A stretch of DNA of 64,000 nucleotides from Chiloscyllium plagiosum (lineage: Eukaryota), in NCBI RefSeq assembly GCF_004010195.1, contig NC_057758.1, positions 9,868,031 through 9,932,030 of the forward strand, given 5' to 3'. Below the pieces are notes generated by a model. It had not been told where the DNA came from, made no database searches, and worked only from the letters and a program-made list of their open reading frames with translations. This document shows, piece after piece, positions 26,590-63,862 of this stretch. Position 1 is the stretch's first letter; each line of letters begins with the position of its first letter. Position numbers and translations under genes: made by a program.

Positions 26590-27050
26590 CAGTCAGAGAG
26601 TATTAGACAGGTGCTTCCCCTCCGTCCCAGCAGCATCAGAGAGTATTAAACAGGCGCTTCCCCCTCCCTCCCAGCACGATCAGAGAGTATTAGGCAGGCG
26701 CTCCCCCCTTCCTCCCAACAGAGGCAGAGTGTATTAGACAGGCACTTCCCCATCCCTCCCAGCAGGGGCAGAGTGTGTTAGACAGGTGCTCCCCCCTCTG
26801 TCCCAGCAAGGTCAGAGAGTATTAGATAGGCACTTCCCCTCTGTCCCAGCAGGGTCAGAGAGTACTAGACAGATGCTTTCCCCTACCTCCCAGTAGGGTC
26901 AGAGTGTACTGGACAGGTGCTCCCCCCATCCCTCCCAGCAGGGCTAGAGGGTACTAGACACATGCTCCCCCCTCCCTCCCAGCAGGGTCAGAGAGTACTA
27001 GACAGGCTAACCCCATCCCCGAAAGGGTCACAGAGTATTAGACAGCACCC
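26590..27050. repeat. ~42-bp minisatellite filling most of the CSKMT intron
   Basis: Repeated cagagagtattagacagg...ccctcccagcagggt. Confidence 0.85.
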
Positions 27051-27197
27051 CCAGTATGGTCAAGGAAGAACAACAAGCCCTCACAGCAGAATCAGGAAGT
27101 ACTGATGCCCACCACAGGTGGTGGTTGTGAAGGAACAGAGTCCTGTGAGCAATCTCACTGTTAGCCAGCTTTCCCATGCTCTGCAAGTGCAACTCAC

Positions 27198-27629
27198 CAT
27201 CTGCTCGGAGCAGCGCGTCCAGTGTTCCCTTGTCTAGAATGAGATCGAAGCTCTGCTGCTGGAAGCCTGAGAGATTCCCGATGTCCATTTGTACAAAATG
27301 CAGTTGGGAAGCTGGGCTCACAGGCAGAGGCAGCAGTGAAAACTGTGCACGCATTATGGCGAGTGCGATGGGAGAGAAATCCACACAGTAGACATGGAGT
27401 GGGAATGGACACTCACAGTACAGGCGGGGGCCCAGCTCCGAGGTGCCACAGCCAATATCTAGCAGCTTGAGTGGAGCCTCACTCTCCATGTCCTGCAGTA
27501 GCTGCAGGATCAGCCCCCTCAGTGAGGAGTATCCCAGGAACCAGTCAAAGTACTGGAATGGCTGACCTTGGCTCCTCTGGTAGATTGTGTCCCAGGTCGT
27601 TTGTTTCTGTAGGTCAGTGAACAAGTAAT
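27198..27629 (-). CDS. CSKMT: Citrate synthase lysine N-methyltransferase (METTL12), internal coding exon
   Basis: ttgcag|AT...GATG|gtgagt on the minus strand; FDWFLGY, LLDIGCGTS (motif I), VDFSP, LILDKGTLDALLR match CSKMT. Confidence 0.92.
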
Positions 27630-28086: not shown

Positions 28087-28586
28087 NNNNNNNNNNNNNN
28101 NNNNNNNNNNNNNNNNNNNNNNNNNNNNNNNNNNNNNNNNNNNNNNNNNNNNNNNNNNNNNNNNNNNNNNNNNNNNNNNNNNNNNNNNNNNNNNNNNNNN
28201 NNNNNNNNNNNNNNNNNNNNNNNNNNNNNNNNNNNNNNNNNNNNNNNNNNNNNNNNNNNNNNNNNNNNNNNNNNNNNNNNNNNNNNNNNNNNNNNNNNNN
28301 NNNNNNNNNNNNNNNNNNNNNNNNNNNNNNNNNNNNNNNNNNNNNNNNNNNNNNNNNNNNNNNNNNNNNNNNNNNNNNNNNNNNNNNNNNNNNNNNNNNN
28401 NNNNNNNNNNNNNNNNNNNNNNNNNNNNNNNNNNNNNNNNNNNNNNNNNNNNNNNNNNNNNNNNNNNNNNNNNNNNNNNNNNNNNNNNNNNNNNNNNNNN
28501 NNNNNNNNNNNNNNNNNNNNNNNNNNNNNNNNNNNNNNNNNNNNNNNNNNNNNNNNNNNNNNNNNNNNNNNNNNNNNNNNNNNNNN
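28087..28586. other. Assembly gap (500 N); other gaps at 12631-13128, 18620-19024, 30473-31048
   Basis: Runs of N. Confidence 1.
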
Positions 28587-29786: not shown

Positions 29787-29977
29787 AAGCAGCTCAGAGG
29801 CCCAGAAGGTGAGATGCAGGGAGGCTGCACGATATCGACGTGACCAGGAGAGGGAGCTATTTGCTGAGCTTGCCTGTCAGCTACCCCTGCCACACCACAT
29901 CACCATTCACCTACAAAAAGCATCAGTCCTGAGACTGACCATCAGTCTCCTACACTTGCGGCACCTCTTACTTACAG
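29787..29977 (+). CDS. HIF-alpha exon 2 (bHLH)
   Basis: ccccag|A...ACAG|gtgagc; [63 protein letters not shown] aligns to the HIF bHLH; 191 nt. Confidence 0.95.
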
Positions 29978-38900: not shown

Positions 38901-41900
38901 TTGTGCCTTGTATATGGTAGATAGACTTTGGGGTGTCAGGAGGTGAGTTACTTGCCGCAGTATTCCTAGTCTCTGACCTGCTGTTACAGCCACTGTGTTC
39001 ATGTAGTGTGTCCAGTTGAGTTTCTAGTCAATGGTAACTCCAAGGATGTTGACAGTAGTGGATTCAGTGATGGTAATAACGTTGAATGTCAAGGGATGGT
39101 GGTTTGAGTGTCGCATTGGTGATGGTCATTGCCTGGCATTTGTGTGGTGCGAATGTTACTTGCCAGTTGTCGGCCAAAGCCTGAATATTGTCCAGATCCT
39201 GTTGCACTTCAGCACAGACTGCTTCAGTATCTGAGGAGTCGCTGAACACTGTGCAATCCTCAGGGAACATCCCCACTTCTGATCTTCTGACAGAGGGCAG
39301 GTCATTGATGAAGCAGCTGAAGATTGTTAGGCCTAGGACACTATCCTGAAGGACTCCTGCAGAGATGCCCTGGAGTCGAGATGACTGACCCTCCACAACT
39401 ACAACCATCTTCCTTTGTGTCAGGTATGACTCTAACCAGTGAATGTTAGCCCGATACCCATTGGTTCCAGTTTTGCCAGGGCTCCTTGATGTCATACTCG
39501 GTCAAATATGGCCTTGATGTCAAGGGCTGTCACTCTCACCTCTGGGATTCAGCTCTTTTGTTCATGTTTGAACCAAGGCTGTAATGAGATCAGGAGTTGA
39601 GTGACCCTGGGGGATCCCAAACTGGGTGTCACTGAGCAGGTGCTACTTGATAGCACTGTTACTGAGCCCTTCCATCACTTTACTGATGATGGAGAGGAGA
39701 CTGAGTGGACGGTAATTGGCCGGGTTGGATTTGTCCTGCTTTTTGTGTACAGGACATACCTAAGCAATTTTCCACATTGTCGGGTAGATGCCAGTGTTGT
39801 AACTGGACTGGAAGAGCTTGGCTAGGGGAGCGGCAACTTCTGGAGCACACGTCTTTAGAGCTATTGTCGGAATATTATCAGGGTCCGTTGCCTTTACAAT
39901 ATGCAGTGCCTCCAGTCAGTTCTTGATATCACGTGGGGTGAATCGAATTGGCTGGAGACTGGTATCTGTGATGCTGGGGACCACTGAAGGAGCCCGAGAT
40001 GGATCATCCATTGGCACTTCTGACTGAAGATTATTGCTATTGCATCAGCCTTATCTTTTGCACTGATGTGCTGGGCTCCTCCATCACTGAGAATTGGGAT
40101 ATTTGTGGAGCTTCTTCCTCCAGTGAGTTGTTTAATTGTCCATCACGTTCCCGACTGGATGTGGAAGGACTGCAGAGCTTAAATCTGATGCGTTGGTTGA
40201 GGGATCGAAGAGCTCTGTCTATCACTTACTGTTTATGCCGTTTGGCATGCAAGTAGTCCTGGTTGGTAGCTTCAGCAGGTTGACACCTCATTTTCAGGTA
40301 TGCCTGATGCTGCTCCTGACATGCCCTCCTGCACTTTCTATTGAACCAGGGTTGATCCCCTGGCCTGATGGTTATGGTTGGGGGGGGGGATATGCCAGAC
40401 CATGAGGTTACAGATGATGCTGGAGTACAGTTCTGCTGCTGTTGATGGCCCACAGCACCTCATGGATGCTTAGTCTTGAGCTGCTAGATCGGTTCGAAGT
40501 TTGTCCCATTTAGCACAGTGACAGTGTCACACAACACGATGGAGGTTATTCTCAATGTGAAGATGGGACTTCGTCTGCACAAGGTGTGGTGGTTACTCTT
40601 ACCGACCGTCATGGACAGATATATCTGCAGCTGGCAGATTAGTAAGGATGAGGTCAAGTATGTTTTTTCCTCTCGTTGGTTCGTTCATCACCTGCTGCAG
40701 ACCCAGTCTAGCAGTTTTCTCCTTTAGGACTTGACCAGCTTGATCAGTGATGCTGCTGCCGAGCCACTCTTGGTGGTGGGACATTGAAATCCCCCACCCA
40801 GAGGACATGTTGCGCCCTAGTCATCCTCAGTGCTTCCTGCAAGTATTGTTCATCATGGAGGATAATGATTCATCAGCCGAAGGAGGACGGTACGTGGTAA
40901 CCAGTAAGAGGTTTCTTTGCCCATGTTTAACCTGAAGCCAAGAGACATCATGGGATCCAGAGTCGATGTCAAGGGCTCCCAGGACAACACCCTCCTGACT
41001 GTATCCCACTGTGCTGGCCCCTCTGGCCTGTGCTGCCGGTGGGACAGGACATATCCAGGGATGGTAATGGTAGTGTCTGGGATGTTATCTGTAAAGTATG
41101 ATTCCATGGATTCATGGTCATCAGCCGACCTTTAATTCCAGGTTTTTAAAAATTGAATTCAAATTCCATCATTTGCCCTGGTGGGATTCGAACCCAGGTC
41201 CCCAGAACATTATTCTGGGTTTTTGGATTAATAGTTGAGCGATAATACGACGAGGCCATCATCTCCCCTTCAGTGCTGTGCTGACAGAGCATCAGTGCTG
41301 AGGGAGCACCACACTGTTGGAGGGTCAGTGTTGAGAGAGCACCACACTCTCAGCAGGTCAGTGCTGAGGGAGTGCTGCATTGTTGGAGGGTCAGTGCTGA
41401 GGGAGTGTCGCACTGTCGGACAGTCAGTGCTGAGGGAGTGCTGCACTGTTGGACGGTCAGTGCTGAGGGAGCTCCGCACTGTCAGTGGGTCAGTGCTGAG
41501 GGAGTGCTGCACTGTTGGAGGGTCAGTGCTGAGGGAGTGCCGTACTGTTGGAGGGTCAGTGCTGAGGGAATGCTGCATTGTTGGAGGGTCAGTGCTGAGG
41601 GAGTGCTGCACTCTCGGAGAGTCAGTGCTAAGGGAGTGCTGCACTGTTGGACGGTCAGTGCTGAGGGAGAGTTGCACTGTCACAAGGTCAATACTAAGGG
41701 AATGCTGCCCTGACGGAGGGTCAGTGCTGAGGGAGTGGCGTGCTGTTGGAAGTTCAGTGCTGTGTTTATCAAAGTGTGCTATATAAATGCAAGTGTTTCT
41801 CCCTGTTTCAGGGGACAATGAGCAGGGGCCTGGCTGCCTGTTGGGATTGAGCAGTGAATTGGATTCACTGCTGGATGGGTTCCTGCTGCTACTGAGCCAA

Positions 41901-44900
41901 AGTGGGAAAGTAACCTTTACCGGAGAAAATGTCCATCGATACCTGGGACTGACACAGGTAAAGCAGGCCTGGGTAAGGTGAGGGCACGGTGTGGGTTCAT
42001 GGTATGGGGGAACAGTGTAGGGCGAAGGGAGAGGGGGCAATGTGAGGGAGGGTNNGGAATGTGAGGGGGAAGGGTGAGGGGGTACAATCAGGGGAAGGCT
42101 GTGGGAGAAAGACAGAGTGAGGGGCAGGACGAAGAGGCATGTTTAGGTGAGAATGGGATTAGTGAACCAGATGAATTTTATGAGAATTCATGACAGTTTG
42201 ATGGTCCCCATCACTGAGACGACTCTTAATCCCTGTGTCCCTGAGCATCAGTCTGGTCCTCAGGATGACTCCTGCAGTCCTACAGTAATGAGAGCCTGGG
42301 AGGGGTAGAGAATGGGGGGCTTGGGGGGAATTGGTGGTGAACTTGGGGGAGGCAATAGAGTGATAGAAGTTCTGGAAGAGCTATGGGGTTCAGATTAGGG
42401 ACATGTTTGGGACCAACAGAGGATAAGAGGCCGTGGGTATGGACTGGGGATGTGGAAGCAGATACGATGAATTTCAGATGGTGATACAAGTAAAAGGAAC
42501 TCATTATTCGGGATTCAGAAGGCATGGCTTTTCACTGTTATCAGAAGTTGGTGTAATTTAGGATTTGTCTGTTTCTGAAACAGCTGGAGCTGATGGGACA
42601 GAATATTTTTGATTTCGTTCATCCCTATGACCAGAGGGAACTTCAGGAAGCTCTGATGTTTAAACAAGGTGAGAATATTCTGGCAAACCCATTTAAAATG
42701 AGGTGCGCCACACTGTCAGAGAATCAGTACTTAGGGAGCACTGCACTATCAGACGGTCAATGCTTAGGAGTGCAGCACTGTCAGAGGCTCAGGGCTGAGG
42801 GAGTGCCACACTGTCACAGGGTCAGCACTTAGGGAGCACTGCACTGTCAGAGGGTCAGTGCTTAGGGAGTGCAGCACTGTCAGAGGGTCAATGCTTAGGG
42901 AGCACTGCTTGTCAGAGGGTCAGTGCTGAGGGAGTGCCACACTGTCACAGGGTCAGCACTTAGGGAGCACTGCACTGTCAGAAGGTCAGAGCTGAGGGAG
43001 TACCGCACTTAGGGACTGCAGCACTGTCAGAGGGGCAGTGCTGAGGGAGTGCCACACTGTCAGAGGATCAACGCTTAGGGAGTACCGCACTGTCAGAGGG
43101 TCAGTGCTTAGGGAGCACTGCACTGTTAGGCAATCAGTGCTTAGGGAGCACCACACTGTCAGAGTGTCAGTGTTTAGGGAGTGCAGCACTGTCAGAGGGT
43201 CAATGCTCAGCGAGCACTGCTTGTCAGAGGGTCAGCACTTAGGGAGTGCCGCACTGTCAGAGGGTCTGCACTTAGGGAACACCACACTGTCAGAGATCAA
43301 GCTGTGTCACCTTTCCTGCTGACTTGGAGACATAGTGCTGTACGTAATTCTCCTGAATATAACCTCAGAAGATCTGTTCCTCACTGTCCCCTGCACTAAC
43401 ACTATCCCGGTCCATATATAGGTACTTAATGTTTCCCATTATAATTACTCCATGGTTGTTACATCTCTGTCTGTAATAATCCTTTCAGATTTGTTCCTGT
43501 ACATCCTTCCCACTAGTTGTCCGTCTCTAGATTACACTGAGCAAATTAACTACATTCTTCTTATTCCCTAGCTCTAAGCAAATTGATTCTGTACTTGAAT
43601 CCTCGAAAACATCCTCTTCCTCGAGTACTCAACACTTTCCTTATCCAAAAACACCATTCCTCCTCCTTTCTCTTTACTAGCCCATCTTTCTGAGCACCTG
43701 GCGACCAGGAATATGAACTCCCAGACCAGTCTCTGCTATTGTCACAGCATCATAATCCCACAGGACAATCTGTGCCTGTAACTCCCCCATCTTTTCTGCA
43801 CTTTCATATGTATACAGTTGAACTCTGATGGAGGTTTCAAAACAAAAATCTGAATTAAGAATCTATTACTGATTGTTGAAAAAACCCATCTGGTTCACTA
43901 ATGTCCTTCAGGAAGGAAATTACCATCCTTCTCTGGTCTGGCCTACATGTGACTCCAGACCCCAGCAATTTGGTTGACTCTTAACTGTCCTCTAGGCAAT
44001 TAGGGATGAAAAATAAATATTGGCCTAGCCTGCATCACCCAAATTCCCGTAAATGAATAGAAAAAGGAAATTACTTTCTCCCTTACTCTGACTTTACCTA
44101 TTCACTTACTATTCTCTGTTCTAGTGTTATCATTTCATTTCTTGCTACCTGCTATTACTGTCTAATATTACTGCCCACTCCCATGGAAAGTTAATTTAAA
44201 CTCTCCTCAATGATACTAGCTAAATGCCGCATAAGGAACTCAGTCCCAATTCTTTACAGACACCATCTGTCCAGACTGTACAGGCACCATCTCCACCAGA
44301 ACCAGTCCCAGAAAAGAAATCCCTCCCATCTTTCCAGCTATAGCTTCTTCTGTCTTATCCTTCTATTCCTGTACTCACTTATTCCTGACACCAGGAGTCA
44401 TCTGGGGATTACTGCTTTAGAAGCTCCACTTGTCAATTTTCTACTTAGCTCCCTAAATTCCACATCCTCATTTCAACTTATGTTATTAATACCAATGTGG
44501 ACCACAATCTCCAACAGCTCACCCAGAATAGTGTCCTGTAGCCACTCAGTGACATCCGTGACTACAGAGACAATAACCCATCCTGAATTCATGTTGGCAA
44601 CCACTAATAGTCCTGACTGTTCCATATGTTTATAACTGAGCTAATAAATCAAAGTTTCCAGGAGTGCTGATCCAGAAAAACAGACTGTAAAATTAAATTT
44701 GTTCAATTTCTTGACTTCTGGGCTGCCTCTAGAAAATGAAGCTGAACATTGCCAGAATATGGTAATAACACAAGTAGCGTCATTCAGAGAGAAGGCAACT
44801 TGGCTGTGTCATTTACCCTTCCCCAACAGTACATAGTGAGCAATTCACCATAGGAATTTATCGGGGAGAAATTACCAGAAATTGTGACATAGAGTCATAG

Positions 44901-50900: not shown

Positions 50901-53900
50901 TGATGATTGAGAGTAGACAGACAGGCAGCGATTTGATGGACAGAATTGTCCTGTATATTTACAGATGGTTGTCCCCTTTGTTTCCTGGCAGTGTTGAAGA
51001 TGGGTCAGATATCCAGTGGGTTATACAGAATGCTGCACTACTTCGGGGGTTACATCTGGGTGAAAACAGAAGCGACTTTGGTCTATGAGAACCAGAATAC
51101 ACGATCACCTTTTGTCATCTGCAATAATTATATATTGAGGTAAAATTAACATGTCTATATCCCACTAAATAGAAATGTCTTTCCTCTATTTCCCCTTCTC
51201 AATTCCCAGCCATGCTGTCAAATAAAGCATTTAATAATGAGGGGTTGGGAGTTAGTAAATAGAATCATACAGCACAGAAACAGACCCTTCAGCCCAATTC
51301 AATCATGCCAATCAGATTTCCTAAACTGATCTAGTGCCATTTGCCTGGGTTTAGTTCATATCCCTCTAAGATGGAAATGTGTTGCTGGAAAAGCGCAGCA
51401 GGTCAGGCAGCATCTAGGGAACAGGAGAATCGACGTTTCGGGCATTAGCCCTTCTTCAGGAAACGCTAATGCCCGAAACGTCGATTCTCCTGTTCCCTAG
51501 ATGCTGCCTGACCTGCTGCGCTTTTCCAGCAACACATTTCCATCTCTGATCTCCAGCATCTGCAGACCTCACTTTCTCCTCCATATCCCTCTAAACCTTT
51601 CCTATTCATGTACCTGTCCAAATGTCTTTTAAAAATTGTAATTGTACCTGTTTCTACCACTTTCGCTGGAAAATCATTCCATATACACACCACCTTGTGT
51701 GTTAAAAAGTTGCCCTTCATATTCCTTTCAAATCTTTCTCTGTTCAACCTTAAACAAATGCCCTCTACTTTTGAATTCCCCTACCCTGGGGAAAAGATCT
51801 TGGCTATTCACCTTATGTATGACCCACATAATCTTATAAATCTCAAAAAGGTAATCCCTTAGCCTCCTATGCTACAGGGAAACAAGTCCTGGCCTATCCT
51901 GCCTCTCCTTTAACTGAAACCTTCCAGTTTCAGTAACATCCTTGTAAATCGTTTTTTGCACCTTTTCCAGTTTAATAACATCCTTCCAATAGCAGGGCGA
52001 CCAGAATTGTATGCAATACTCCAAATGTGACCTTCCCAATGTCTTGTACAGCCATCACATGATGTCCCAACTTCTGAACTCATTGCTCTGACTGACGAAG
52101 GCAAGCGTGTCAAACGCCTTCTTCATCAGCCTGTCAAACTGTGACACCACTTTCAAGAAAATATGTACTCCTAAGTCTCTCTACTCAACATCACTCCTAA
52201 GAGCCCCAGCATCCTCACTTCTGACCTTATGAAGATCGGAGGGTTGCTGATGAAGAACTGAAGATGGTTGGGCCTAGGACACTACCCAACAACCTGCAGT
52301 GATATCCCAGGACTGAGAAGACTGACCTCTAACAACCATCTTCCTTTGTGCCAGGTTAAGATTCCAACCAGCAGAAAGTTTTCCCCTTCATTCTCATTGA
52401 TTCCTGTTGTGCTAGGGTTCATTAATGCCACACTTGGTTAAATGCTGCCTTGATGCTCACAGTTCTCCTTTGGAGTTCAGCTCTTCTGTGCACGTTTTGA
52501 CCAAAGCTGTAATGAATCGAGTGTCCCTGGCAGAATCCAAACTAAGTGTCAGTGAGCAGGTTATTAATTATGTAAGTCCTATCCTGGTTTGTCTCCCCAA
52601 AATGCAACACCGCACATTTATCTGCATTAACCTCCATATGCTAGTCCTCAGTCCACTGGCCCAGTTGATCAAGACCACATTGTATCCTTCGGTAACTTCT
52701 TCACTGTTCGCCACAACACCACTTTGGTGTCATCTGCAAATTTACTAACCAAGCTTCCTATATTCTCATTCAAAATGTTTACATAAATGATGAACAACAG
52801 TGGACCCCGCACTAGTTCTTGTGGCACACCTCTGGTCACAGGCCTCCAGTAGATAAAACAACCTTCTACCACCACTGTCTGTCTCCTACCGTCAAGCCAG
52901 TTTTGTATCCAATTGGCTAGCTCTCCCTGGATCATGTGATCTAACTTTACGAACCTGTCTACCATGTGGAACTTTGTCGAAGGCTTTGCTAAAGTCTACT
53001 TAGACTTTGTGTACTACTCTGTCTTCATCTATCTTCTTGGTCACTTCTTCAAAAAACTCAATCAGGTTTGTGAGACACAATTTCCCACACATAAAGCCAT
53101 GCTGACTATCCCTAGTCCTTGCCTTTTCAGATGCACGGAGATCCTGCCTCTCAGAATCCCCTCCATAAACTTACTCACCACTGATCTCAGGGTCACTGGT
53201 CTGTAGTTCTTTGCATAGAGGTGAGTAGGCTCAATTGTACGGGCATGGGATTAACAATATAGAAATTGGGGTTGTAATGGGGGTGTTATTAATGGGGTTT
53301 AAAGATTAATGATATGGAGTGGGGCTTAATGGTGAGGGGATTCAATTATTGATGGGAACTGGGGTTAATAATGGAGAAACTGGGATTAATGATGGACACT
53401 GGGGATTAAAAGTGGAGGAGCAGGAACTTATAGAATCACATATAGTGTGGAAGCAGGCCATTTGGCCCATCAAATCCATACTGACCATCCAAACAGCAAC
53501 CCACCCTGACCCACCTCTGTACCCCATAACCCTACATTTTGCATGGCTAATCCACCTGGCCTGCACATCCCTGATTACTACGGGGGAATTTAGCATGGTC
53601 AATCCACCTAACCTGTACATCTTTGTACTGTGGGGAGGGAACCCATACAGACACAAGGAAAATGTGCAATCTCCACACAAACAGTTGCCAGTGGGTGGAC
53701 TCGAACTCAGGTTCCAGGCAGCAGTGCTAACCACTGAGCCACCATGATGGGGAGTTGGGGTTTATGATGCAGCACGAGGAGTTAAGAACCCAAGAAATAG
53801 GAGCAGGAGGAAAGCACTTGGCTGCTTAAACGGCTGCTTAAACCTGCTCTGCCTTCTTTGAGATCGAGGCAGATTTACTCAAGCCTCAACTTTTCTTTTG

Positions 53901-56900
53901 TGTCAGCTCAGTTTAACACTCAACTCACAAATGTTTCCACCTCTACTTAAAATAGTTTCAGTGATCTAGCCTCTATAATCTTCTGCAGTAAAGAATTCCA
54001 CATATTCACTACCTTATGGTAGAAACAGCCAGTTTGGAGGGCTACAAGAGTCAATGAAGATCATCGTTAGTCAAGCTGTTAACTCCAGACTGATCAATTA
54101 CAATCACTTTTTAACCATCTGTTATGGTGGTATTTGAACCATGATCTCTAGATCTCCACTCTGGATCTCTGGAATACTGGTCCAGTGACATTATCATGAC
54201 ACTACCGCCACCTCTAATGATGAGGCTTAAAGAACAAAGAACAATATAGTACAGGACAGGCCCTTCACCAATACATTTTGCCCCTCCATACTAAAACTTA
54301 TCACTTACAGGATCTGCATCCCTCTATTCCCTTCCTATTTATGTATTCATCCAGTTGCTTCTTGAATGCTGCTATTGTGTCTGTTTTTACCACCTCCTCT
54401 GGCAGTGCGTTTGTGTGAAAAACTTACCTCGCATATCTCTTTTAAACATCCCCCCTTGAACCTGTTTCCCTTGGTAAGTGATTTGTCTACCCTGGGAAAA
54501 CGTCTCATACTTCTCACTCTATCCATGCTATACACATTCTTATAAACTTCTATCAGGTCGCCCCTCAACCTGCTGTCTTCCAGTGAAAGCAAACCCAATT
54601 TATCCAACCTTTCTTCATAGCTAAAATTCCCCTTACCAGGCAACACACTGGTAAGCCTTTTCTGTACCTTCTCCAAAGCATCTACATCTTTTTGGTAATG
54701 TGGTGTCCAGAACTGTACGCAATATTCCAAGTCTGACCTGAATAAAATTCTGTAAAGCTGCAGCATTAATTGTTTATCCTTATAGTCAATGCTCCTTCCA
54801 ACGAAGGCAAGCATGCCTTAGACCTTTTGTACTACCTTATCTACCTGCGCTGCCACCTTCGGTGATCTGTAGATCTGCACACCTAGATTCCTCTGCATAT
54901 CAATACTCCTAAGGGTTCTGCCATTCACTGTATAATTTCCACCTGTACTTCACCTTCCAAAATGCATCACCTCACATTTGTCCAGGTTAAACACTTTTGT
55001 CCAGATTTCTACTTATGCCTCCAACTGATCTATATCCTGCTGTATCCTCTGACAATTCTCCTCACAATCTACAACTCCGCCAATCTTTGTATCGTCCGCA
55101 AGCTCACAAATTAAACCAGCTACATTTTCCTCCAAATCATTTATGTGGATCACGAACAGTGGAGGTCCTATCACTGATCTCGATGGAACACCACTAGTCA
55201 TAGTCTTCCATTCTGTAAAGCGTCCTTCCACCACTACCCTCTGTCTCCTATGACTTAGCCAGTTCTGCATCCATCTTGTCAACTCACCCCTGAGACTATG
55301 TGACCTCACCTTTTGTACCTGTCTGCTGTGAGGGACCTTGTCAAAGTCCATGTAGATACATCAACTACTTTTCCTTCATCAATCATCTTGGTCACCTCCT
55401 CAAAAAACTCGATCAAGTTATTGAGGCATGACCTCCCCCACACAATCATGCTGTCTATCGCTAATTGGTCCTTTTGCTTCGAAATGCATGTAGATTTTGT
55501 TCCTGAGAATCTTTTCCAGTATTTCCCTACCACCGATTTGATGCTCATAGGCCTGTAATTTCCAGGATTATCCCTGCTACCCTTCTTAAACAGTGGGACA
55601 ACATTGGCTATTCACCACTCCTCTGAGACCTCACCAGTGGCCAAAGAGGATACAAAGCTGTCTGTCAATGCTGCAGCAATTTGTTCTCTTCATTTCCTCA
55701 ATATTCTGGGATAGATCCCATCAGGACATTGGCGGGGGGGTGGGGGGTGGGGTGATAGAGGAAATGGGGTTAATGCAGGATTCATATTTTGAGGAACGGG
55801 AGGTAATCTTATTGAGACCTGCAAAATACTTTTAAGATTTAGACAGGGTAGATGCTGGTGAAGTATATCCCCTGGTTGGGGAGTCGAGAACAAGGAAACA
55901 CAATTTCGAAACAAGCGGAGGACACTTTGGACTAAGATAAGGAGATTTTTTTAATGTATATTTTTGCAATACCCCAGATGACTGTGAAGTTTAGTCACTG
56001 AGTATGTTTAAAGTGGAGATTAACATCGTTCTAAATACCAGAGACATAAAGTGGAAATAGCATGGAGGAAAAGGTATCAAAGTAGATACTCAACGTTATA
56101 CTGAATGACAGAGCAGGCTTGATGGGCAAGGCCTACTCCTGTTCACATGTTCCAAGCTGAAAATTGACAATTTGTACTCCCTTTACAGTAGGCCTGAGCA
56201 AGAAGAGATACTATTCTCCATTGAGCAGACTAAATCTGACACAGGAGGAAGGGGACTTCCCACAGCCACAGTGTTACCCAGGGATGCTAAATGTGCTCAC
56301 ATAGGACCAAGACACAGACTGGAGCAGCAAGGCCATCAACCATGTGAAGTCAGCGAAACTGAAGCTCTCGAAGTTGGAATCTCAGGTAAGGAGGTGTCAG
56401 TGGGACAGGGAACAGTCTAGTGTGCATTGATCCTTCACAGGCATTTCTCACAATCAGACTCGAGTGTGGTGTTGGAAAAGCACAGTCAGTTAGGCAGCAT
56501 CCCAGGAGCAGGAGAGTCAACGTTTCAAGTATAATGACTGACACATTCCTGATGAAGAGCTTATGCTCGAAACATCGACTCTCCTACTCCTAGGATGCTG
56601 CCTGACTGGCTGTGCTTTTCCAACACCACACTCTTGACTCTGATCTCCACGATCTGCAGTCCTTACTTTCTCCCAATTGCTCACAATTAGTCAACTACAC
56701 TCGTGATAGGCAACAACCATTCCAACAAGCCAATCTAACCATTGCCCTTTGACATTCAATGATACTACCATCACTGAATCCTCCACTATCACCATCCTGG
56801 GGGCTACTATTGATCAGAAACTAAACTGGACCAGCCATATAGAGTGGCTACAAGAGCAGCTCTGAGTAAAGATTGGTAATTTCTGTGGTTAGGGTGAGCT

Positions 56901-59900
56901 AGAGTTTGGATCAGGGTTAGGAGAATTTGGGAAAGTGGGAAGTCTGGTTAGGGCTAAGGAACAGGGTTAAAGATTGGGAAGAGCTGAATTTGGAGGCAGC
57001 CAGCTTTGGGTGATCATAGTTAGAATTAGGACTAAGGTTCTAGAGTGGGGGGTTAGGAGGAGTCAGTGTTAGGGTTACAGTTGGGGGTTTGGGAAACAAC
57101 ATTAGGTATTAGGGTTTTGGGTTTTAACTTTGGAATTAGGGTTTAGAGATAAGGTTCGGGGTTGGGTGGAGATGAAGATTTAGGAAGAAACAGTTGTAAA
57201 TAGGGTTAGGGTAATATTTAATGACTGGGAGGGCTGGGATTAGTTTAAGGGATTGGGCAGTGGGGTTAGGTCTAGCGGGTGCATTAATTGCCATAGACAT
57301 TGGAAGGAGTTAGATTAAGGTTTGAGTTGGGATTTGGGTTTGGTGTTTAGAGTATCAGGACTTTAGTCGAGTTGGAATTTTTGAAAATTGATTTCTGGGA
57401 TGTGGACATCGAAGCAGGGCCAGTGTTTGTTGACTGTCCCTAGTCCCCAGGGGTACTGAGAAGGTGGTGATGATCTGTGTTCTTGAACTGCTGCAGTCCA
57501 TGTCTGGTAGATTGACCCACAATGCTGTTAGGGAGATTGTTCCAGGATTTTGACCCAGTGACACTGAAGAAATAATGATATATTTCCAAGTCAGGATGGT
57601 GCGTGGCTTGAAGTGGAACTTGTTCCCATGTATCTGCTGTACTTGTGGTGATTGTGGGTTTAAAAGGCGCTCTCTAAGGAGCCTTCGTAAGTTATTGTGG
57701 TGTATCTTGTAGATGGTATACTCTGCTACCTCTATGCATTAATAGTGGAGGGTTTGGATGTTTGTGGATGTGATGCCAATCAAGTGGGCTGCTTTGACAT
57801 GGATGGTGTCAAGTTTCTTGAGTGTCATTGGAGCTGCACTCATCCAGACAGGTAGGGAGTATTATCTCACAGTTCTGACTTGTGCCTTGTCATGGTGGGA
57901 CAGGCTTTGGAGAGTCAGCAAGTTGAGTTATTTGCTGCAGGATTCCCAGCCTGTGACCTGCTCTTTTGGCTGCAGTATTTATATGGTTAGGTTAGCTCAG
58001 TTCTGGTTAATTGTAATATTAAGGATGTTGACAGAGGGGCATTCAGTGGTGGGAAAAGCTTTCAATGTTAGACTCAGGCTTGGTCTTAGGCTTTGTGAAT
58101 ACATGGGATTTGGGGACTTAAATGTAAGTTTGGGATTAGGGGCTGGGAGGACCCTGGATTAAGGGTAGTGAGGCATCAGGTCTGCATTAAGATTGGTGTT
58201 AGTTTTTGTTCGGAGTTGGGTCTGCTGTTAATTGCAGTGTTTCTTGTTCAGGGATGCAGTGGTCTTATCAACATCACAACCTTCAACATCCACTTTCGTC
58301 AACCGATGCTGTGCCCCAGTCCCAAAGGCTGGCATTTGAGAATTCTCGACTCCTGGGCCTTGCAAGTGGAGCTGCCCTGACTAACCCCACATTAACTTCC
58401 TTTAGAAACATGACCCTTAGACCGAGCACCTTGTTCTCAGCAGCCAGCAGCAGCAACCTAACTGAGGTAAGTCAAAGCTTGTAGACCTTCAAAGAATTTA
58501 TCTGACAAGGGAGGGTTTGGGGAGGTGGCTTGAGAAGTTCAGGGAGAAGCTGAAAGGATACAGCATAAATCTCTCAGAGCCCCTGATGCTGATCAGTGGC
58601 CAATGAGTTGCCCAATCAATGCCCAACTAAGTACTGGTAACAGTTGGATAGTGGTACTTTGCAAGGTCAAACTGCCTGCCAGTGAGGGCTCAGGTGAGGA
58701 GCAAAAGGACTTGACACCACAATGAAACTGAGCACCTCTTGGGCAGATGATGAGTTACTACTAGAGGATCAAGAAAGCACTGTTGAGAGGGTGGAAGCAG
58801 GTTCAAAAGATACATTTAAAAGGGAATTGGATGGTAATTTGAAAAGGAAGGAAGTACAGAGTGTTATGAAGATGTGAGTGAACTATACCTTTTAAGAGAG
58901 TTAAAAGCTAGCAGTGACAGCACAGTGTTCTCAATAAGACACAATGTAACAGGTGCTCCAGCTAGCGGGGTAGCAGGTTGCCTGGAAATGACAAAAAACA
59001 GATTTGAATTAGGCCAATCAGTTTAAATTATACTCCGAAAAATACCAAACTCCAATCAAGTTTGAATTGAGTTTGTTGACAATCTGAAAAGCCAATGACA
59101 TAATCCGATGCTTTGAGGATATAACACAGGGGAAAATTGAACAGTTGGGAGGAGAACTGCCAAACTACCAGTATGTAAACAAACTGCCTGAAAAATAGCT
59201 CTCTTATTGATCAGTAAACTGGGAAGCAGAAATCCCTAAGAAGAAAAGAAGACACAGGAAGGTCCAAATAGAAGAACCAAAAGCTGCCTGGTTTTGAGAT
59301 AAGTTTTTTTTTGTAAATCTTAATTGGGAGTTTTGTCAGACTTGTATTATAGAAGGGAAAGCAAACAATAGGTTAGAGTAAGGACTTGTGAATAGTTGTT
59401 GGTTAATTAGTCTCTGTTATACTTTAAGAAATAAAGTTGTTAATTTTTACTTTAAATAGTTCTTGACCACTTGAATTTTTACAGATTACTGCACGGGATA
59501 ACTCTTTTCTGTGTTGCTGGTTTTACATTAAGGAGAGTTTACCTCATGTCATAACCACAGAGCAAGACAGGAAAATGGCATTAAGTGAGATGCTGATTTG
59601 GAGAGCTGGCACAGAGATAGTGGACTGAATGGTCTACTTCTACACTGTAACAATTGTGTGTTTGAGAGATTCCGCACTCAAAACCGCTAGATCCAGGAAC
59701 TCTCAGGGAAACCCATTACCATCAGCAGGTCAGGACTGAACAGAGCTCCAGTGAGATGGCTAATGTGGATCCATGAGCTTGGTTGGGTACCAGAGTCAGT
59801 GCAGTGCCTGAAGCATTTGAGGCTCAGAATTGAGACGAGTCAACAAAACCCCTTGTGCAGGTTCTGCCCTCACGGAGATGTGTTTTCTTCTGAGTGTAGG

Positions 59901-62900
59901 AATGGTTTGCCGATCACAATCTTGAGAACTTGGCCCCATTTATTCCAATGGAGGATGAAGAATTTCAGATGATTCCTGTGGAGAATTCGTGGCTCCGAGC
60001 TGTCCCAGGATATCAGACCCTGCATCACAGGGGCAACTGTGAGACTGCCAGGTAGAGCAAACCCCAGCAACATCTAGACTCCCAGCCGATACCCCAGGAA
60101 TACCTAGACGCCCAGCTGATATCCCAGCAGCACCTAGACTCCTAGCCCAAGACCCAGCAGTACCTAGACTCCCAGCTGATACTTCAGGAACATTCACCTC
60201 TCAGCCGATACCCCAGGAACACCCATCTCCCAGCCCGAGACCCCAGCATCACCTAGACTCCCAGCCGATACCCCAGGAACATCCATCTCCCAACCCGAGA
60301 CCCCAGCATCACCTAGATTCCCAACCCGAAACCCCAGGAACACCCACTCTCAGCCCAAGACCCCAGAACCATCCAGTCCCTCAACCCAAGACTCAGCAGC
60401 ACCTTATGCCTTCTTGACCTTGATACTCTTTAGAGAGGGAACAGCTTCTCCCAATCTACTCCATCCAGCCTGCTCATGATTTTGAAACACTTTATCAAAT
60501 CTCCTCTCATGCTTCTTCCTAATGTCATCAATCCATCCTCACAAGTGAACTTTCTCAATCAGAACCATTCTTCTAAATTGCTTCTGCATTCTTTCCTATG
60601 CATTCACATCTTTCCTATAAGATGGAGACCACAATTATACACAATACTGCAGTTGAGGTTCTAACAAGTATCTTAAACAAGTTCAACATCACCTCCTTCC
60701 TCTTGTAGTCTATGCTCCTATTAATAAAGCTAAGAAACACTGTGTGCTTATGAGCTGCTTTCTCTACCTGTCCAGTCACCTTCAATGATCTATGCAGAAA
60801 TACAGTCAGGTCCTCTGCTCCTGCCCCCCCCCCCCCCCTTTAGAATTGTACCCTCTATTTTATATTGTCTTTCAATGTTCTTCCATCCAAACTGAATCAC
60901 TTCACACTTTTCTGAATTGAACTTCATCTACCACTTCTCTGTCCATTCCACCAACCTGTCAATGTCTGATCGGAGTTCAAAGTTAAAAATCACACAACAC
61001 CAGGTTATAGTCCAACAGGTTTAATTGGAAGCACACTAGCTTTCGGAGCGTCGCTCCTTCATCAGGTGATTGTGGAGGGCTCCGAAAGCGTCGCTCCGAA
61101 AGCTAGTGTGCTTCCAATTAAACCTGTTGGACTATAAACTGGTGTTGTGTGATTTTTAACTTTGTACACCCCAGTCCAACACCGGCATCTCCAAATCATG
61201 ACTATTATCGGAGTTCCACACTGACCTCCTCACAGTTTGCAGTTCTTCCAAGTTTCATATAATCTGCAAACTTTGAAATTGTCTTCAGCACACCAAAGAG
61301 CTTGTCCTATCATGGATCCACCATCACTCGTATCCAGATTCAGCCCCACCTTGTGACCAAGTTACAGCCCTGAGTGTTCTGACCAATGGTCACAGGGGAT
61401 ATTATGCAATGTTGGAGGTGCCAGCATTCATTGTTATTTTGGGGAGCTGCTGGTGAGTTACTGGCTGTGACAGTGTTGGTAACATGCAGGTTGTGTCTCT
61501 GGTTACTGACACTGGTCCCTCTTGCAGGTTCTCTTCGAGCAGTGTCTGTGAGCTGAGCCTCCGCCGTGGCATCAAGAGGAACCATCAGACCGATTTGACC
61601 TGTGACTTGGCAGTGGTGAGTTGCAGGAAAAGGTTGCACTGAGCCCTTGTTGCAATAAGAAGCAATGCTGTGTTTGATGAGGATATTGTCATGGGAAATT
61701 TACTCTGTATCAATCCTGTGCTGTCCCTGTCCTGGGAATGTTTGAGGGGACAGTGTAGAGAGATCTTTACTCTGTATTTAACATGGTGCTGACCCTGTCC
61801 TGGGAATGTCTGATAGGGACAGTGTATGGAGAGCTTTACTCCATATTTAACCCTCTGCTTTTCATATCCTGGAAGTATTTGATGGGGACAGTGTAGGGGA
61901 AGGTTTACTCTATATCTAACACTGTGCTCTACCTGTCCTGGGAATGTTTGATGGGGAAAGTGTCGAGGGGAGTTTACTCTGTATCCAATTCAGCACTGTC
62001 ATTGTCCTTGGATTGTTTGATGGGAACAATGTTAAGAGAGCTTTGTACGATATCTAACACTGTTTTGAACCTGGATGGTATGTTTCAGTGTCTATGCAAG
62101 GACGGTTGTTGTGATGCTGAATGGCAGGGTCCCTTTCAGCAGAAGAGATTGAAGACTTTGAATGTATTGGATACAGAGGAGCAAAGCTGCCACAGAGAGA
62201 ATCTGAGCCTGTGGGATTGGAGAACAGGTAGGGGAAACAAAGCTCAGAATTTCATGGCTAGCTGTTTTTGGAAATGCAATTCTTTTGCCCTGTCGATCAC
62301 TCAGGCAGCCAATTGGTTCACCACTTGGAGGCTCACTGCCCAATCTTCATTAGATCCACGTTCACAAATGGATTTCCAGCTGTTTGGAAGACTGAGTAAG
62401 CAGTGATTAGGGATTGGAAATCTTATGGAGTTCTACGTAATCCCCACCTACCCACCAAAAAAACATGCAGACAAAGTGGTTTAGAAGGCATATGGAACAC
62501 TTTCCTTTATTAGTTGAGGTGTGGAGTTTAAGAAATGGGAGACTTTGGTGGAACTGTATAAAATGTTAGTAAGGCCACAACTACAGTATTGCATACAGTT
62601 CTAGAACCCACATTATAGCAGGGATGTGATAGCACTGGGCAGCATACAGAGGAATTTTTTCAGGATATTATCAGTTATGAAATTGAGCAGACTGAGATTG
62701 TTTTCCTTGGGACAGAGGAGATATAGAAAGTACATGATTAAAATGTATAATGTTAAGAGGGATTATAGATAGGGTAAACAGAAAAAAACTTTCCCCTTGA
62801 TGAAGGGATCAATGATCAGGGAACATAGTTTGAAAGTAAGGAGAGGAGGTTCAAGGATATGTAAGGAAAGTGTTGGGATCTGGAACTCTCTGCCTGCAAA

Positions 62901-63862
62901 GCTGGTAAAAAACCTTCCAACATTTAAGAAGTACAAGTTATTCTGCATGTGTCCTCAACGTGGACTCATTGTGACACGATTAACAAATTGGGCACACTAT
63001 CTGTAAAGCCCGTGAAATTTTAAAACATGTGTTGGCTGTAACACAATTTCATCGCCAACACTTTAAGCACTGTTTGTAAAGTACAATTTTTCTATAACAT
63101 GCAGTTGCACAAGAACGCAACCATCGGGTTTTAGAAGAATTGACTGTATTTAGATTTGCACTTGGGATGCCAAGGTATACAAGGCTATGGACAGTGCTGG
63201 AAAATCGAATTAGAATGATTAGGTGATTGTTTTCGACAAGCTATTACAAGGGGGCATAGCTTTAAATTAAGGGGGGGTAGGTATAGGACAGATGTTAGGG
63301 GTAGGTTCTTTACTCAGCGAGTCGTGAGTTCATGGAATGCCCTGCCAGTAGCAGTGGTGGACTCTCCCTCATTATGGGCATTTAAGCGGGCATTGGATAG
63401 GTATATGGAGGATAGTGGGCTAGTGTAGGTTAGGTGGGCTTGGATCGGCGCAACATCGAGGGCCGAAGGGCCTGTACTGCGCTGTATTCTTCTATGTTCT
63501 AAGCACAGACAGCTTGGGCTGAAGGGCCCTTTTCTCTGCCTTAGACGTCTATGACTGCATGACTTTTGGTGGGTGATTGGAGTAGTGGTGGCAATATCTG
63601 AAGGTCTTGAAATTACAGATTGTCCAGTTTTCTTGCTTTAAAGATGCTTCTGACTTTGCTTCCTCTAGATCTGTCCAGCTGCCTGCAGGGGCCGTGCTCT
63701 TCACTCAAGGTGTTACCAATTCTCAGTCCCATTGACTGTGAGGTCAATGCTCCACTCCATGGGGCAAGGCTCCTTCACGGGACAGACCTGCTGCAGGTTC
63801 TGGATCAGGCCAGCTTATACCAGGAGAGCAAGGATTTACCAAACCCCAGCCACATGAAGTGA
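29787..63862 (+). CDS. Hypoxia-inducible factor alpha family gene (HIF-4alpha-like, divergent), multi-exon; 13 visible coding exons, first exon not visible
   Basis: Exons 29787-29977, 41812-41957, 42584-42668, 45783-45892, 46876-47057, 48575-48681, 50992-51139, 56189-56385, 58252-58466, 59900-60051, 61528-61615, 62089-62227 and 63669-63862 all have AG/GT ends and compatible phases (1954 nt, one open frame to TGA). Several exon sizes (191, 146, 85, 107, 148) match those I recall for HIF1A. Confidence 0.93.
30247..32720. mobile_element. Penelope-like inverted terminal arms enclosing an N-gap and CR1 sequence, flanked by a direct repeat
   Basis: 30247-30472 is the reverse complement of ~32460-32690; cacagcagataagag at 30235 and 32721. 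Confidence 0.75.
32740..36200. mobile_element. Cluster of nested, degenerate CR1-like LINE fragments (both strands)
   Basis: APE-like LDLVMCNE...[13 protein letters not shown]-like [15 protein letters not shown] and [18 protein letters not shown]. Confidence 0.8.
34253..34411. mobile_element. Tigger/pogo-like MITE
   Basis: TIRs CAGAGGAACCTC(A/G)ATTAT ... ATAATCGAGGTTCCTCTG with TA on both sides; interrupts a CR1. Confidence 0.85.
37030..38398. repeat. 33-bp minisatellite array
   Basis: Tandem cactgttggagggtcagtgctgagggagtgctg. Confidence 0.9.
38405..41105 (-). mobile_element. CR1/L2-group LINE copy B, inverted near-identical partner of copy A
   Basis: ORF-track peptides identical or nearly so between 10576-11455 and 39601-40405. 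Confidence 0.88.
41270..41760. repeat. 33-bp minisatellite array
   Basis: Same unit, ending ~50 nt before HIF exon 3. Confidence 0.9.
41812..41957 (+). CDS. HIF-alpha exon 3 (PAS-A start)
   Basis: tttcag|GG...ACACAG|gtaaag; [33 protein letters not shown]; 146 nt. Confidence 0.93.
42584..42668 (+). CDS. HIF-alpha exon 4 (PAS-A)
   Basis: aaacag|CTG...CAAG|gtgaga; [28 protein letters not shown]; 85 nt. Confidence 0.94.
42705..43295. repeat. 33-bp minisatellite array (variant unit)
   Basis: cactgtcagagggtcagtgcttagggag units. Confidence 0.88.
44888..45690 (-). mobile_element. CR1/HER1-like LINE 3' fragment
   Basis: [32 protein letters not shown]. Confidence 0.88.
45783..45892 (+). CDS. HIF-alpha exon 5 (PAS-A)
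   Basis: caacag|TG...TGGAAG|gtgcga; [37 protein letters not shown] (cf. EPAS1 [26 protein letters not shown]); not in the ORF track. Confidence 0.93.
46876..47057 (+). CDS. HIF-alpha exon 6 (PAS-A end, PAS-B start)
   Basis: tttcag|GTG...AGCAG|gtcagt; VLHCSG...[39 protein letters not shown]. Confidence 0.94.
47129..47692 (-). mobile_element. Penelope-like element 3' fragment (GIY-YIG endonuclease) with a 12-bp TSD
   Basis: Minus-strand [28 protein letters not shown]; acctctaactct at 47117 and 47693; short inverted terminal piece. Confidence 0.85.
48575..48681 (+). CDS. HIF-alpha exon 7 (PAS-B)
   Basis: tcacag|A...AGCT|gtaagt; [36 protein letters not shown]; 107 nt. Confidence 0.94.
48893..49005 (+). 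mobile_element. tRNA-derived SINE head
   Basis: A-box-like TGGTGCAGTGG and B-box GGTTCAAGTCC. Confidence 0.6.
49075..50280 (-). mobile_element. Degenerate LINE 5' part (family of copies A/B)
   Basis: [22 protein letters not shown]; tRNA-like and APE-like remnants. Confidence 0.7.
50992..51139 (+). CDS. HIF-alpha exon 8 (PAS-B/PAC)
   Basis: tggcag|TG...TTGAG|gtaaaa; [49 protein letters not shown]; 148 nt. Confidence 0.94.
51369..51581. mobile_element. Short palindromic Penelope-like insertion with TSD
   Basis: 81-bp inverted arms 51369-51449 and 51465-51545; catatccctcta(a) at 51357 and 51582; inserted in a CR1 3' fragment (~51260-52200, -). Confidence 0.88.
52570..53215 (-). mobile_element. 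CR1-like LINE RT fragment
   Basis: [16 protein letters not shown]...GVPQ...SKFADDTK. Confidence 0.85.
53430..53746 (-). mobile_element. tRNA-derived SINE (HE1-like) with a CR1-type tail
   Basis: Minus strand ATGGTGGCTCAGTGGTTAGCACTGCTGCC...GAGTTCGAGTCC. Confidence 0.7.
54230..55730 (-). mobile_element. CR1-like LINE RT fragment
   Basis: [34 protein letters not shown]. Confidence 0.85.
56189..56385 (+). CDS. HIF-alpha exon 9 (post-PAS; lacks N-ODD LxxLAP)
   Basis: ttacag|T...TCAG|gtaagg; [15 protein letters not shown] matches the HIF 'IFSLQQTE' segment; phases 2->1. Confidence 0.88.
56455..56674. mobile_element. Short palindromic Penelope-like insertion
   Basis: Imperfect inverted arms; ctcacaat on both sides; CTGATGA...GAAAC core at 56549-56576. 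Confidence 0.75.
58252..58466 (+). CDS. HIF-alpha exon 10 (low-conservation linker)
   Basis: gttcag|GG...ACTGAG|gtaagt; open, non-repetitive; phases 1->0 bridge exon 9 to the C-ODD exon. Confidence 0.75.
58945..59556. mobile_element. Possible solo LTR
   Basis: Starts TGTAAC, ends TCATAAC(C), internal AATAAA; imperfect acaa/acag flanks. Confidence 0.4.
59900..60051 (+). CDS. HIF-alpha C-ODD/N-TAD exon
   Basis: gtgtag|[27 protein letters not shown] (cf. HIF1A LEMLAPYIPMDDDFQL); donor CCAG|gtagag, phase 2; not in the ORF track. Confidence 0.9.
60060..60402. repeat. 30-bp minisatellite (ccccaggaatacctagactcccagccgata)
   Basis: ~11 diverged tandem units directly after the C-ODD exon. Confidence 0.85.
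60979..61206. mobile_element. Palindromic Penelope-like insertion (second family) with a 10-bp TSD
   Basis: Inverted arms; atcggagttc at 60969 and 61207; related fragments at ~19843-19930, ~28787-28912 and ~35737-35855. Confidence 0.85.
61528..61615 (+). CDS. HIF-alpha exon (first basic NLS-like cluster)
   Basis: ttgcag|G...GCAGTG|gtgagt; [30 protein letters not shown]; phases 2->0. Confidence 0.75.
61695..62075. repeat. ~68-bp tandem repeat (ctttactctgtatctaac...gtcctgggaatgtttgatggggacagtgtagag); same family at ~36555-36735
   Basis: Diverged tandem units. Confidence 0.75.
62089..62227 (+). CDS. HIF-alpha penultimate exon (KRLK NLS-like)
   Basis: tttcag|TGT...ACAG|gtaggg; [25 protein letters not shown]... 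(cf. HIF1A WKRVK); phases 0->1. Confidence 0.8.
62465..63560 (+). mobile_element. Nested CR1 3' fragments containing a degenerate Tigger-like MITE (62934-63146)
   Basis: CR1 3' motifs and tails; MITE bounded by TA with imperfect TIRs. Confidence 0.65.
63669..63862 (+). CDS. HIF-alpha last exon (C-terminal transactivation domain)
   Basis: ctctag|[66 protein letters not shown]; contains the FIH-target CEVNAP motif. Confidence 0.95.

What the first reader, a model, noticed from the sequence alone, without database searches (positions are those of the whole stretch)
29787..63862. Intact, divergent HIF-alpha gene that looks like the fourth vertebrate ohnologue (HIF-4alpha-like) in a probable shark
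Seen: 13 phase-compatible exons give ~650 codons of bHLH-PAS-A-PAS-B-(no N-ODD)-C-ODD-NLS-C-TAD, next to CSKMT and an LBH-family gene. Known: HIF1A and EPAS1 have two ODD prolines plus a C-TAD, while mammalian HIF3A lacks the CEVNAP C-TAD. Human CSKMT and LBHD1 lie together at 11q12.3, which has no HIF-alpha gene. I recall, but have not verified, a HIF-4alpha/hif1al2 lineage reported in ray-finned fishes. Inference: this is the 2R paralogue lost in mammals and retained in chondrichthyans, an oxygen-sensing branch with a domain set unlike the three human paralogues.
Basis: partly seen in the sequence, partly recalled or inferred. Interest (0 to 1): 0.85.

Follow-up and report, generated by a model that had tools for sequence, protein, structure and literature searches.

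The report
Shark keeps fourth oxygen-sensor gene HIF4A
This bamboo-shark DNA holds an unbroken copy of HIF4A, the fourth vertebrate oxygen-sensing transcription factor gene that mammals lack; the gene is already known from bony fishes, salamanders and the elephant shark, so it is a new shark member of a known kind that likely still responds to low oxygen.

Summary
Confirmed. Thirteen GT-AG exons (29787-63862) splice into a stop-free frame of 650 codons: bHLH, PAS-A, PAS-B, one ODD proline, KRLK and a CEVNAP C-TAD; exon 1 was not found. The genome has four C-TAD loci; the other three are HIF1A, EPAS1 and HIF3A. In ML trees the gene groups with gar HIF4A, fish hif1al2, and coelacanth, lungfish and axolotl proteins (100/99); joining it to HIF1A, EPAS1 or HIF3A is rejected (AU p 0.0075, 7e-8, 0.0045). 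It lies among LBH-family, CSKMT-like and UQCC3 genes (human 11q12.3). Not found in my searches of print: a shark HIF4A with C-ODD and C-TAD (the elephant-shark model was said to lack both); N-ODD kept in 3 of 14 HIF4A proteins, so its loss is recurrent; and this shark's HIF3A also keeps a C-TAD. No splice junction was seen in RNA, and gar's direct neighbours are not adjacent here.

The parts
29787..29977 (+). HIF4A exon 2, bHLH domain (191 nt, phase 2 to 1)
   Evidence: (bHLH_HIF1A E 2.7e-19)
41812..41957 (+). exon 3, start of PAS-A (146 nt)
42584..42668 (+). exon 4, PAS-A (85 nt)
45783..45892 (+). exon 5, PAS-A (110 nt)
46876..47057 (+). exon 6, end of PAS-A, linker, start of PAS-B (182 nt)
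48575..48681 (+). exon 7, PAS-B (107 nt)
50992..51139 (+). exon 8, end of PAS-B (148 nt)
56189..56385 (+). exon 9 (197 nt); the exon that carries the N-ODD in this genome's HIF1A and EPAS1; no LxxLAP here
58252..58466 (+). exon 10, linker (215 nt)
59900..60051 (+). exon 11, C-ODD; LxxLAP with the target proline codon at 59936-59938, followed by Phe where bony-vertebrate HIF4A has Tyr
61528..61615 (+). exon 12 (88 nt)
62089..62227 (+). exon 13 (139 nt) with KRLK at 62143-62154, a likely nuclear-localisation motif (role recalled, not tested)
63669..63862 (+). exon 14, C-TAD with CEVNAP (Asn codon 63746-63748) and the stop codon
23499..23710 (+). neighbour: core exon of an LBH-family gene (LBHD1-like by position)
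26349..27629 (-). neighbour: CSKMT-like methyltransferase, two exons (27198-27629 and 26349-26569) in one open frame of 216 residues; first exon not found
28087..28586 (.). assembly gap between the CSKMT-like gene and HIF4A exon 2; likely hides the first exons of both genes (inferred)

Best explanation
The window holds 13 in-frame exons of the shark orthologue of HIF4A (fish hif1al2), the fourth HIF-alpha gene of jawed vertebrates, which likely works as a low-abundance, oxygen-labile transcription factor with one degradation proline. Shown: the open frame, domain order, placement in the HIF4A clade, and three other HIF-alpha genes elsewhere in the genome. Inferred from HIF1A/EPAS1 biochemistry (as summarised in PMC13760070, passages): in normal oxygen a PHD enzyme would hydroxylate the single C-ODD proline, VHL would destroy the protein, and FIH would hydroxylate the C-TAD asparagine to keep p300/CBP off; in low oxygen the protein would persist, pair with ARNT through bHLH-PAS, bind hypoxia response elements and activate genes. 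With no N-ODD it would have one PHD site, not two. Its basic region is eroded (6 Lys/Arg against 9 over the same 17 residues of HIF-1alpha), so DNA binding is probably weaker than for HIF1A. Origin in the early vertebrate genome duplications is inferred from the tree, the shared exon plan and neighbouring gene families.
For: Open frame and exon plan shared with HIF1A and EPAS1. Four C-TAD loci in the genome, on contigs C10, C9, C41 and C49. HIF4A clade of 12 rows, window included, at 100/99 under LG+C20+F+G4 (33 rows, 317 columns) and 99.7/100 under JTT+F+G4 (41 rows, 318 columns). The gar member shares a 90% cluster with XP_069036561.1, listed as gar HIF4A in PMC12923738. AU tests reject union with HIF3A, EPAS1 and HIF1A. 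Constraint against Hemiscyllium: C-ODD 30 of 30, PAS core 253 of 259, linker 127 of 137 identical. Neighbours: LBH family and CSKMT-like upstream, the genome's only UQCC3 match 5.9 kb downstream; LBHD1, UQCC3 and METTL12 are listed at human 11q12.3. LBH-family genes also lie on the HIF1A and HIF3A contigs.
Against: All HIF4A branches are long (window end branch 0.64 plus a 0.60 stem), so attraction between long branches cannot be fully excluded. Only 4 HIF1A rows were in the tree. None of the 20 genes flanking gar HIF4A was found in about 285 kb examined around the gene, by a rough exon screen of which 44 candidates were scanned; DPP3, a PELI gene, an EML gene and INTS5 lie on C45, not C49. 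Exon 1 is missing. All three elasmobranch database loci (Chiloscyllium punctatum, Hemiscyllium, Narcine) have models that start after the bHLH. Every step of the mechanism is untested in this protein.
Confidence: 0.82

Rival explanations
1. It is HIF4A, but elasmobranchs mostly make it without the bHLH exon, giving an oxygen-labile PAS + C-TAD protein that cannot bind DNA and would dampen HIF1/HIF2 by tying up ARNT or p300.
For: 3 of 3 elasmobranch database loci have models that begin after the bHLH. The basic region is the most eroded part. Intron 2 is 11.8 kb and no exon 1 was found.
Against: Exon 2 is open, exactly 191 nt, with canonical splice sites and the right phases. The first 'exon' of the Hemiscyllium model matches a repeat present twice in this window, so it looks like a prediction artefact. 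Elephant shark, coelacanth, lungfish, axolotl and gar HIF4A have the bHLH, and gar and coelacanth also have short models beside full ones.
Confidence: 0.1
2. It is a fast-evolving chondrichthyan duplicate of EPAS1, HIF1A or HIF3A, drawn to bony-vertebrate HIF4A by long-branch attraction.
For: Long branches; core identity to HIF4A proteins (143-155 of 311-318) is little above that to HIF1A or EPAS1 (145 of 321, 144 of 318). Databases name its orthologues EPAS1-like or HIF1A-like. Direct gar neighbours are not adjacent.
Against: AU p 0.0045, 7e-8 and 0.0075 under a site-mixture model. The C-TAD begins with the (V/L)LP(V/I)L pattern of HIF4A, not the LPEL/LPQL pattern of the others. Neighbours map to human 11q12.3, the same human arm region as the gar HIF4A neighbours (11q12-13 placement of those is recalled), not to the HIF1A, EPAS1 or HIF3A contigs.
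Confidence: 0.04
3. It is a decaying HIF4A on its way to loss, open by recency and no longer under much selection.
For: It changes far faster than EPAS1 (253 of 259 vs 329 of 330 identical to Hemiscyllium in the core). HIF4A is the least expressed paralogue in ray-finned fishes and was lost repeatedly (PMC9789988).
Against: Exons 3-14 are open in two shark genera with one in-frame gap; C-ODD and C-TAD motifs are also kept in the ray Narcine; motifs are better conserved than linkers.
Confidence: 0.04

Closest known systems
HIF4A / hif1al2 of ray-finned fishes (Townley et al. 2022, PMC9789988)
   Same: Same clade; bHLH-PAS-PAS, C-ODD and CEVN C-TAD; no N-ODD; long branch.
   Different: Shark lineage; Phe after the ODD proline and a C-TAD one residue shorter (both shared with the ray Narcine); flanked by LBH-family, CSKMT-like and UQCC3 genes rather than dpp3 and six6l.
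Elephant shark HIF-alpha-like / fourth HIF gene (PMC5470732; PMC10958119)
   Same: Sister to the elasmobranch sequences in the tree (91/89); intact bHLH-PAS.
   Different: The published model was said to lack both transactivation domains and the database models stop after PAS-B; the shark gene here has both C-ODD and C-TAD.
HIF4A of coelacanth, lungfish, axolotl, Polypterus and sturgeon
   Same: Same clade, C-ODD and C-TAD.
   Different: Axolotl, Polypterus and sturgeon keep an N-ODD LxxLAP and coelacanth has a near copy (Ala to Ser); the shark has none.
HIF1A and EPAS1 (HIF-1alpha, HIF-2alpha)
   Same: Same exon sizes and phases over bHLH-PAS, same C-ODD and C-TAD motifs; the model for its mechanism.
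   Different: Two ODD prolines, about 45% identity in the core, separate loci on C10 and C9 in this genome.
HIF3A
   Same: One canonical ODD; in this shark HIF3A also carries a C-TAD.
   Different: Separate clade and locus (C41); mammalian and teleost HIF3A lack the C-TAD.

Membership tests
HIF-alpha (class I bHLH-PAS) | bHLH followed by two PAS domains | tested here: met
   Pfam bHLH_HIF1A on exon 2; PAS families on the 94-98% identical P0001; best PDB matches are HIF-1alpha and HIF-2alpha
HIF-alpha (class I bHLH-PAS) | LxxLAP oxygen-dependent degradation motif | tested here: met
   one motif, exon 11
HIF-alpha (class I bHLH-PAS) | Oxygen-dependent stability, ARNT pairing, HRE activation | not testable with these tools
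   needs bench assays
HIF4A (hif1al2) | One clade with gar HIF4A and fish hif1al2 | tested here: met
   100/99; 99.7/100
HIF4A (hif1al2) | Fourth gene beside separate HIF1A, EPAS1 and HIF3A in one genome | tested here: met
   HIF3A recovered only from exon 6 on (15,565 N in 70,000 bases) and placed through its Hemiscyllium match
HIF4A (hif1al2) | C-TAD with CEVN present, N-ODD absent (as published for ray-finned fishes) | tested here: met
   absence of N-ODD is not clade-wide: 3 of 14 HIF4A proteins examined keep it
HIF4A (hif1al2) | Shared flanking genes with gar HIF4A (dpp3, ccs, actn3, six6l, b4gat1, peli3l and others) | tested here: inconclusive
   none seen next to the gene; DPP3 and a PELI gene are on C45; neighbours here map to human 11q12.3; the gene is about 50 kb from the contig end and the assembly is fragmented
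HIF4A (hif1al2) | Expressed, spliced transcript | tested here: inconclusive
   no RNA holder listed; the lay was swamped by repeats
HIF1A | Clade membership and two ODD prolines | tested here: not met
   AU p 0.0075; one ODD
EPAS1 (HIF2A) | Clade membership and two ODD prolines | tested here: not met
   AU p 7e-8; one ODD
HIF3A | Clade membership | tested here: not met
   AU p 0.0045

The most novel reading that the evidence does not exclude
Sharks keep the full ancestral jawed-vertebrate set of four HIF-alpha genes, all with an FIH-controlled C-TAD, and elasmobranch HIF4A has been reshaped into a mostly bHLH-less, oxygen-labile competitor for ARNT and p300: a hypoxia brake with a C-TAD that mammals have no counterpart for. 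The four C-TADs are shown in this genome; the brake role is the untested part.
Probability: 0.1. Interest if true: 0.65.

Novelty: new member of a known kind. Interest (0 to 1): 0.33.

Why it matters
It fills in the shark branch of a gene that databases mislabel (EPAS1-like, HIF1A-like, hypothetical) and gives a model with the bHLH exon that the three elasmobranch database loci lack. With the C-TAD-bearing shark HIF3A it implies that all four HIF-alpha genes started with two ODDs and a C-TAD, and that modules were shed later and repeatedly: C-TAD from bony-vertebrate HIF3A, N-ODD several times in HIF4A. It matters in practice for hypoxia work on bamboo and epaulette sharks, where HIF primers and annotations should count four genes. 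It does not reveal a new pathway.

Tried and rejected
RNA evidence: no RNA holder listed among 24 runs. Four contig runs guessed to be RNA were laid on 29400-49000; repeats swamped the tables (15 joints shown, 2555 hidden) and none shown was an exon junction. This is no evidence either way. Exon 1: a scan of 24600-29730 for ATG to a phase-2 GT(A/G)AG donor gave 2 candidates, both beyond the far end of the CSKMT-like gene and unlike the Lys/Arg-rich N-termini of relatives; rejected. The first residues of the Hemiscyllium model match a repeat at 39381 and 11677; rejected as a real exon. SIX7/six6l next to the gene: the SIX domain search gave 5 matches, all on C9 and C10; not found, which may reflect the assembly. 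Neighbour screen: a home-made exon scorer over 22 fetched stretches and the window gave 387 candidates, 170 printed, 44 scanned with Pfam, 5 with hits (2 actin, 7tm, UQCC3, LRR). Eight stretches of C45 near INTS5 and DPP3 were read for long frames; output was cut and no HIF piece was seen in the part shown. Rfam: 0 matches in the window. A paper giving HIF base-contact residues was not found, so no residue-level DNA-binding claim is made. Cyclostome placement differed between trees; no claim. No structure or complex prediction was run: a HIF-ARNT pair would pass by likeness to solved structures. The supplement search of PMC10958119 read one file and found no shark name; its Table S1, which I could not see, may list further chondrichthyans.
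Full report
OBSERVATION. Motif scans found a C-ODD-like LAPFI at 59930 and CEVNAP at 63737. Reading splice sites and aligning a Chiloscyllium punctatum protein found with exon 6 gave 13 exons from 29787 to 63862. All 13 have AG acceptors, the 12 internal ends have GT donors, phases match, and the 1954 nt translate to 650 residues with only the terminal stop. Five of the seven bHLH-PAS exons have exactly the sizes of those in this genome's HIF1A and EPAS1. Exons 3-14 match RefSeq XP_060711471.1 of Hemiscyllium ocellatum at 562 of 590 residues with one gap. Exon 1 was not found; a 500-base gap lies 1.2 kb upstream of exon 2.

FOUR GENES IN ONE GENOME. The C-TAD family matches 4 places: C10, C9, C41 and this window on C49. 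C10 carries a complete HIF1A, C9 plus unplaced C101952 carry complementary halves of EPAS1, and C41 carries HIF3A from exon 6 on, mostly 78-96% identical per exon to Hemiscyllium HIF3A-like P0022. SIX clusters sit 1-1.7 Mb from the C10 and C9 genes, as for gar HIF1A and HIF2A.

TREE. References came from three homologue searches, one representative search and two name look-ups. A quick tree of 159 rows put the window with elephant shark, Narcine and Hemiscyllium proteins inside a group with gar, bichir, sturgeon, coelacanth, lungfish, axolotl and hif1al2 proteins. IQ-TREE on 41 rows x 318 columns of bHLH-PAS gave that group 99.7/100. With the site-mixture model on 33 rows (8 left out for time: eel HIF4A, Myripristis, Heterocephalus and Carcharodon HIF3A, Polypterus and Stegostoma EPAS1, one lamprey, hagfish) it had 100/99, and HIF1A, EPAS1 and HIF3A were each one group. 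Forcing the three chondrichthyan rows into HIF3A, EPAS1 or HIF1A lowered the log-likelihood by about 40 (AU p 0.0045, 7e-8, 0.0075). The gar row shares its cluster with the accession that PMC12923738 lists as gar HIF4A; the HIF4A labels on lungfish, axolotl and coelacanth rows come from my tree, not from checked accessions. Caveats: long branches, only 4 HIF1A rows, and row labels were set after the quick tree was seen.

NEIGHBOURS. Upstream are an LBH-family gene and a CSKMT-like methyltransferase on the opposite strand; 5.9 kb past the stop codon is the genome's only UQCC3 match; about 40 kb upstream of the window is a muscle-type actin. Tables in two papers place LBHD1, UQCC3 and METTL12 at human 11q12.3, with EML3 and INTS5 (passages). 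LBH-family genes also lie on the HIF1A and HIF3A contigs, and EML and PELI genes on C9 and C10, the pattern expected of duplicated chromosomes. Against: none of gar HIF4A's 20 flanking genes was seen nearby, and DPP3, INTS5, an EML and a PELI gene are on C45. The block is either moved in this lineage or mis-placed at a contig end; I could not tell which.

MOTIFS. Of 14 HIF4A proteins examined, window included, 13 have the C-ODD and 13 the C-TAD (the elephant-shark model is truncated); 3 (axolotl, Polypterus, sturgeon) have an N-ODD LxxLAP and coelacanth a near copy. So the published statement that HIF4alpha lacks the N-ODD (PMC9789988) holds for part of the clade only, and loss in elasmobranchs is likely independent (inference from the tree). 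Shark and ray share Phe after the target proline and a C-TAD one residue shorter. Of 4 database elasmobranch HIF3A proteins examined, 2 have CEVNAP, 1 has the domain with Asn replaced by Glu and 1 has none; this genome's HIF3A has it too; the teleost and marsupial HIF3A examined have none. This genome's HIF3A has LGP at the N-ODD place, so HIF3A and HIF4A have the same module set here.

MECHANISM. By analogy with HIF1A/EPAS1 (PMC13760070, passages): PHD acts on the one proline, VHL destroys the protein, FIH blocks the C-TAD; hypoxia lifts both and the protein pairs with ARNT to activate HRE genes. All of this is inferred. The basic region differs from HIF-1alpha at several positions and has 6 against 9 basic residues, so binding may be weak. 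Database models of all three elasmobranch loci lack the bHLH, which leaves a bHLH-less form open, but exon 2 is intact here and the Hemiscyllium start is repeat-derived. RNA could not settle it.

WHAT IS KNOWN. PMC9789988 (part 1 of 9, passages, Supplementary Table S2) named HIF4A in ray-finned fishes and has no mention of shark, chondrichthyan or cartilaginous. PMC10958119 (section 4 and passages) reports four HIF genes in elephant shark. PMC5470732 (passages) saw a fourth 'HIF-alpha-like' group, said the Callorhinchus sequence lacked both transactivation domains, and found C-TADs only outside HIF-3alpha. PMC12923738 (passages) lists HIF4A in axolotl, newt, lungfish, bichir and gar, expressed in red cells and endothelium. 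Searches for a shark or ray HIF4A, or a shark HIF3A C-TAD, found no such paper in this library; most subscription papers are not searched. The scan's index returned one note, on a different fourth ohnologue (Pitx) in this genome; I did not use it.

VERDICT. Real, correctly identified, and a new shark member of a published lineage. Orthology about 0.95, functional gene about 0.9, the whole reading with mechanism 0.82. Interest 0.33: specialists expect it, and the side results (full module set in a shark HIF4A, recurrent N-ODD loss, C-TAD in shark HIF3A) are useful but modest.

Noticed in passing
L003 (G000:C41:2212276-2212374) and L044-L047: This shark's HIF3A keeps a full CEVNAP C-TAD, as does the Heptranchias protein, although HIF3A is described as lacking one; it suggests loss on the bony-vertebrate side. 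My paper searches found no report of it.
   Followed up: partly
proteins P0157, P0091, P0089: Axolotl, Polypterus and sturgeon HIF4A keep an N-ODD LxxLAP, against the published statement that HIF4alpha lacks it.
   Followed up: partly
L055 (G000:C41:6665495-6665611): An LBH-family gene lies on the HIF3A contig; humans have three LBH genes by my recall (none at 19q13), so this may be another retained fourth copy.
   Followed up: no
L063:7237 to L062:1784 (G000:C49:about 9.825-9.830 Mb): A muscle-type alpha-actin gene about 40 kb upstream of the window; one exon is 99% identical in protein to an actin on the HIF1A contig C10.
   Followed up: partly
window 27995-28086: A 94-base copy (95% identical) of part of the last CSKMT-like exon sits against the N gap; local duplication or assembly artefact.
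   Followed up: partly
G000 C49 end versus C45:0.8-1.43 Mb: Genes that are neighbours at human 11q12-13 are split: LBH-like, CSKMT-like and UQCC3 on C49; EML, INTS5, DPP3, PELI and a muscarinic-receptor-like frame on C45, which is richer in GC and CpG.
   Followed up: partly
window 6894-8861: A 94-base tandem repeat of 20.9 copies, 100% identical, giving long spurious open frames.
   Followed up: no
L073-L074 (G000:C49:about 9.71-9.72 Mb): NACHT-LRR (NLR-like) exons about 150 kb upstream of the window.
   Followed up: no
G000 C9 and C101952: EPAS1 is split in the assembly: exons 2-7 on an unplaced contig, exon 8 onward on C9.
   Followed up: yes
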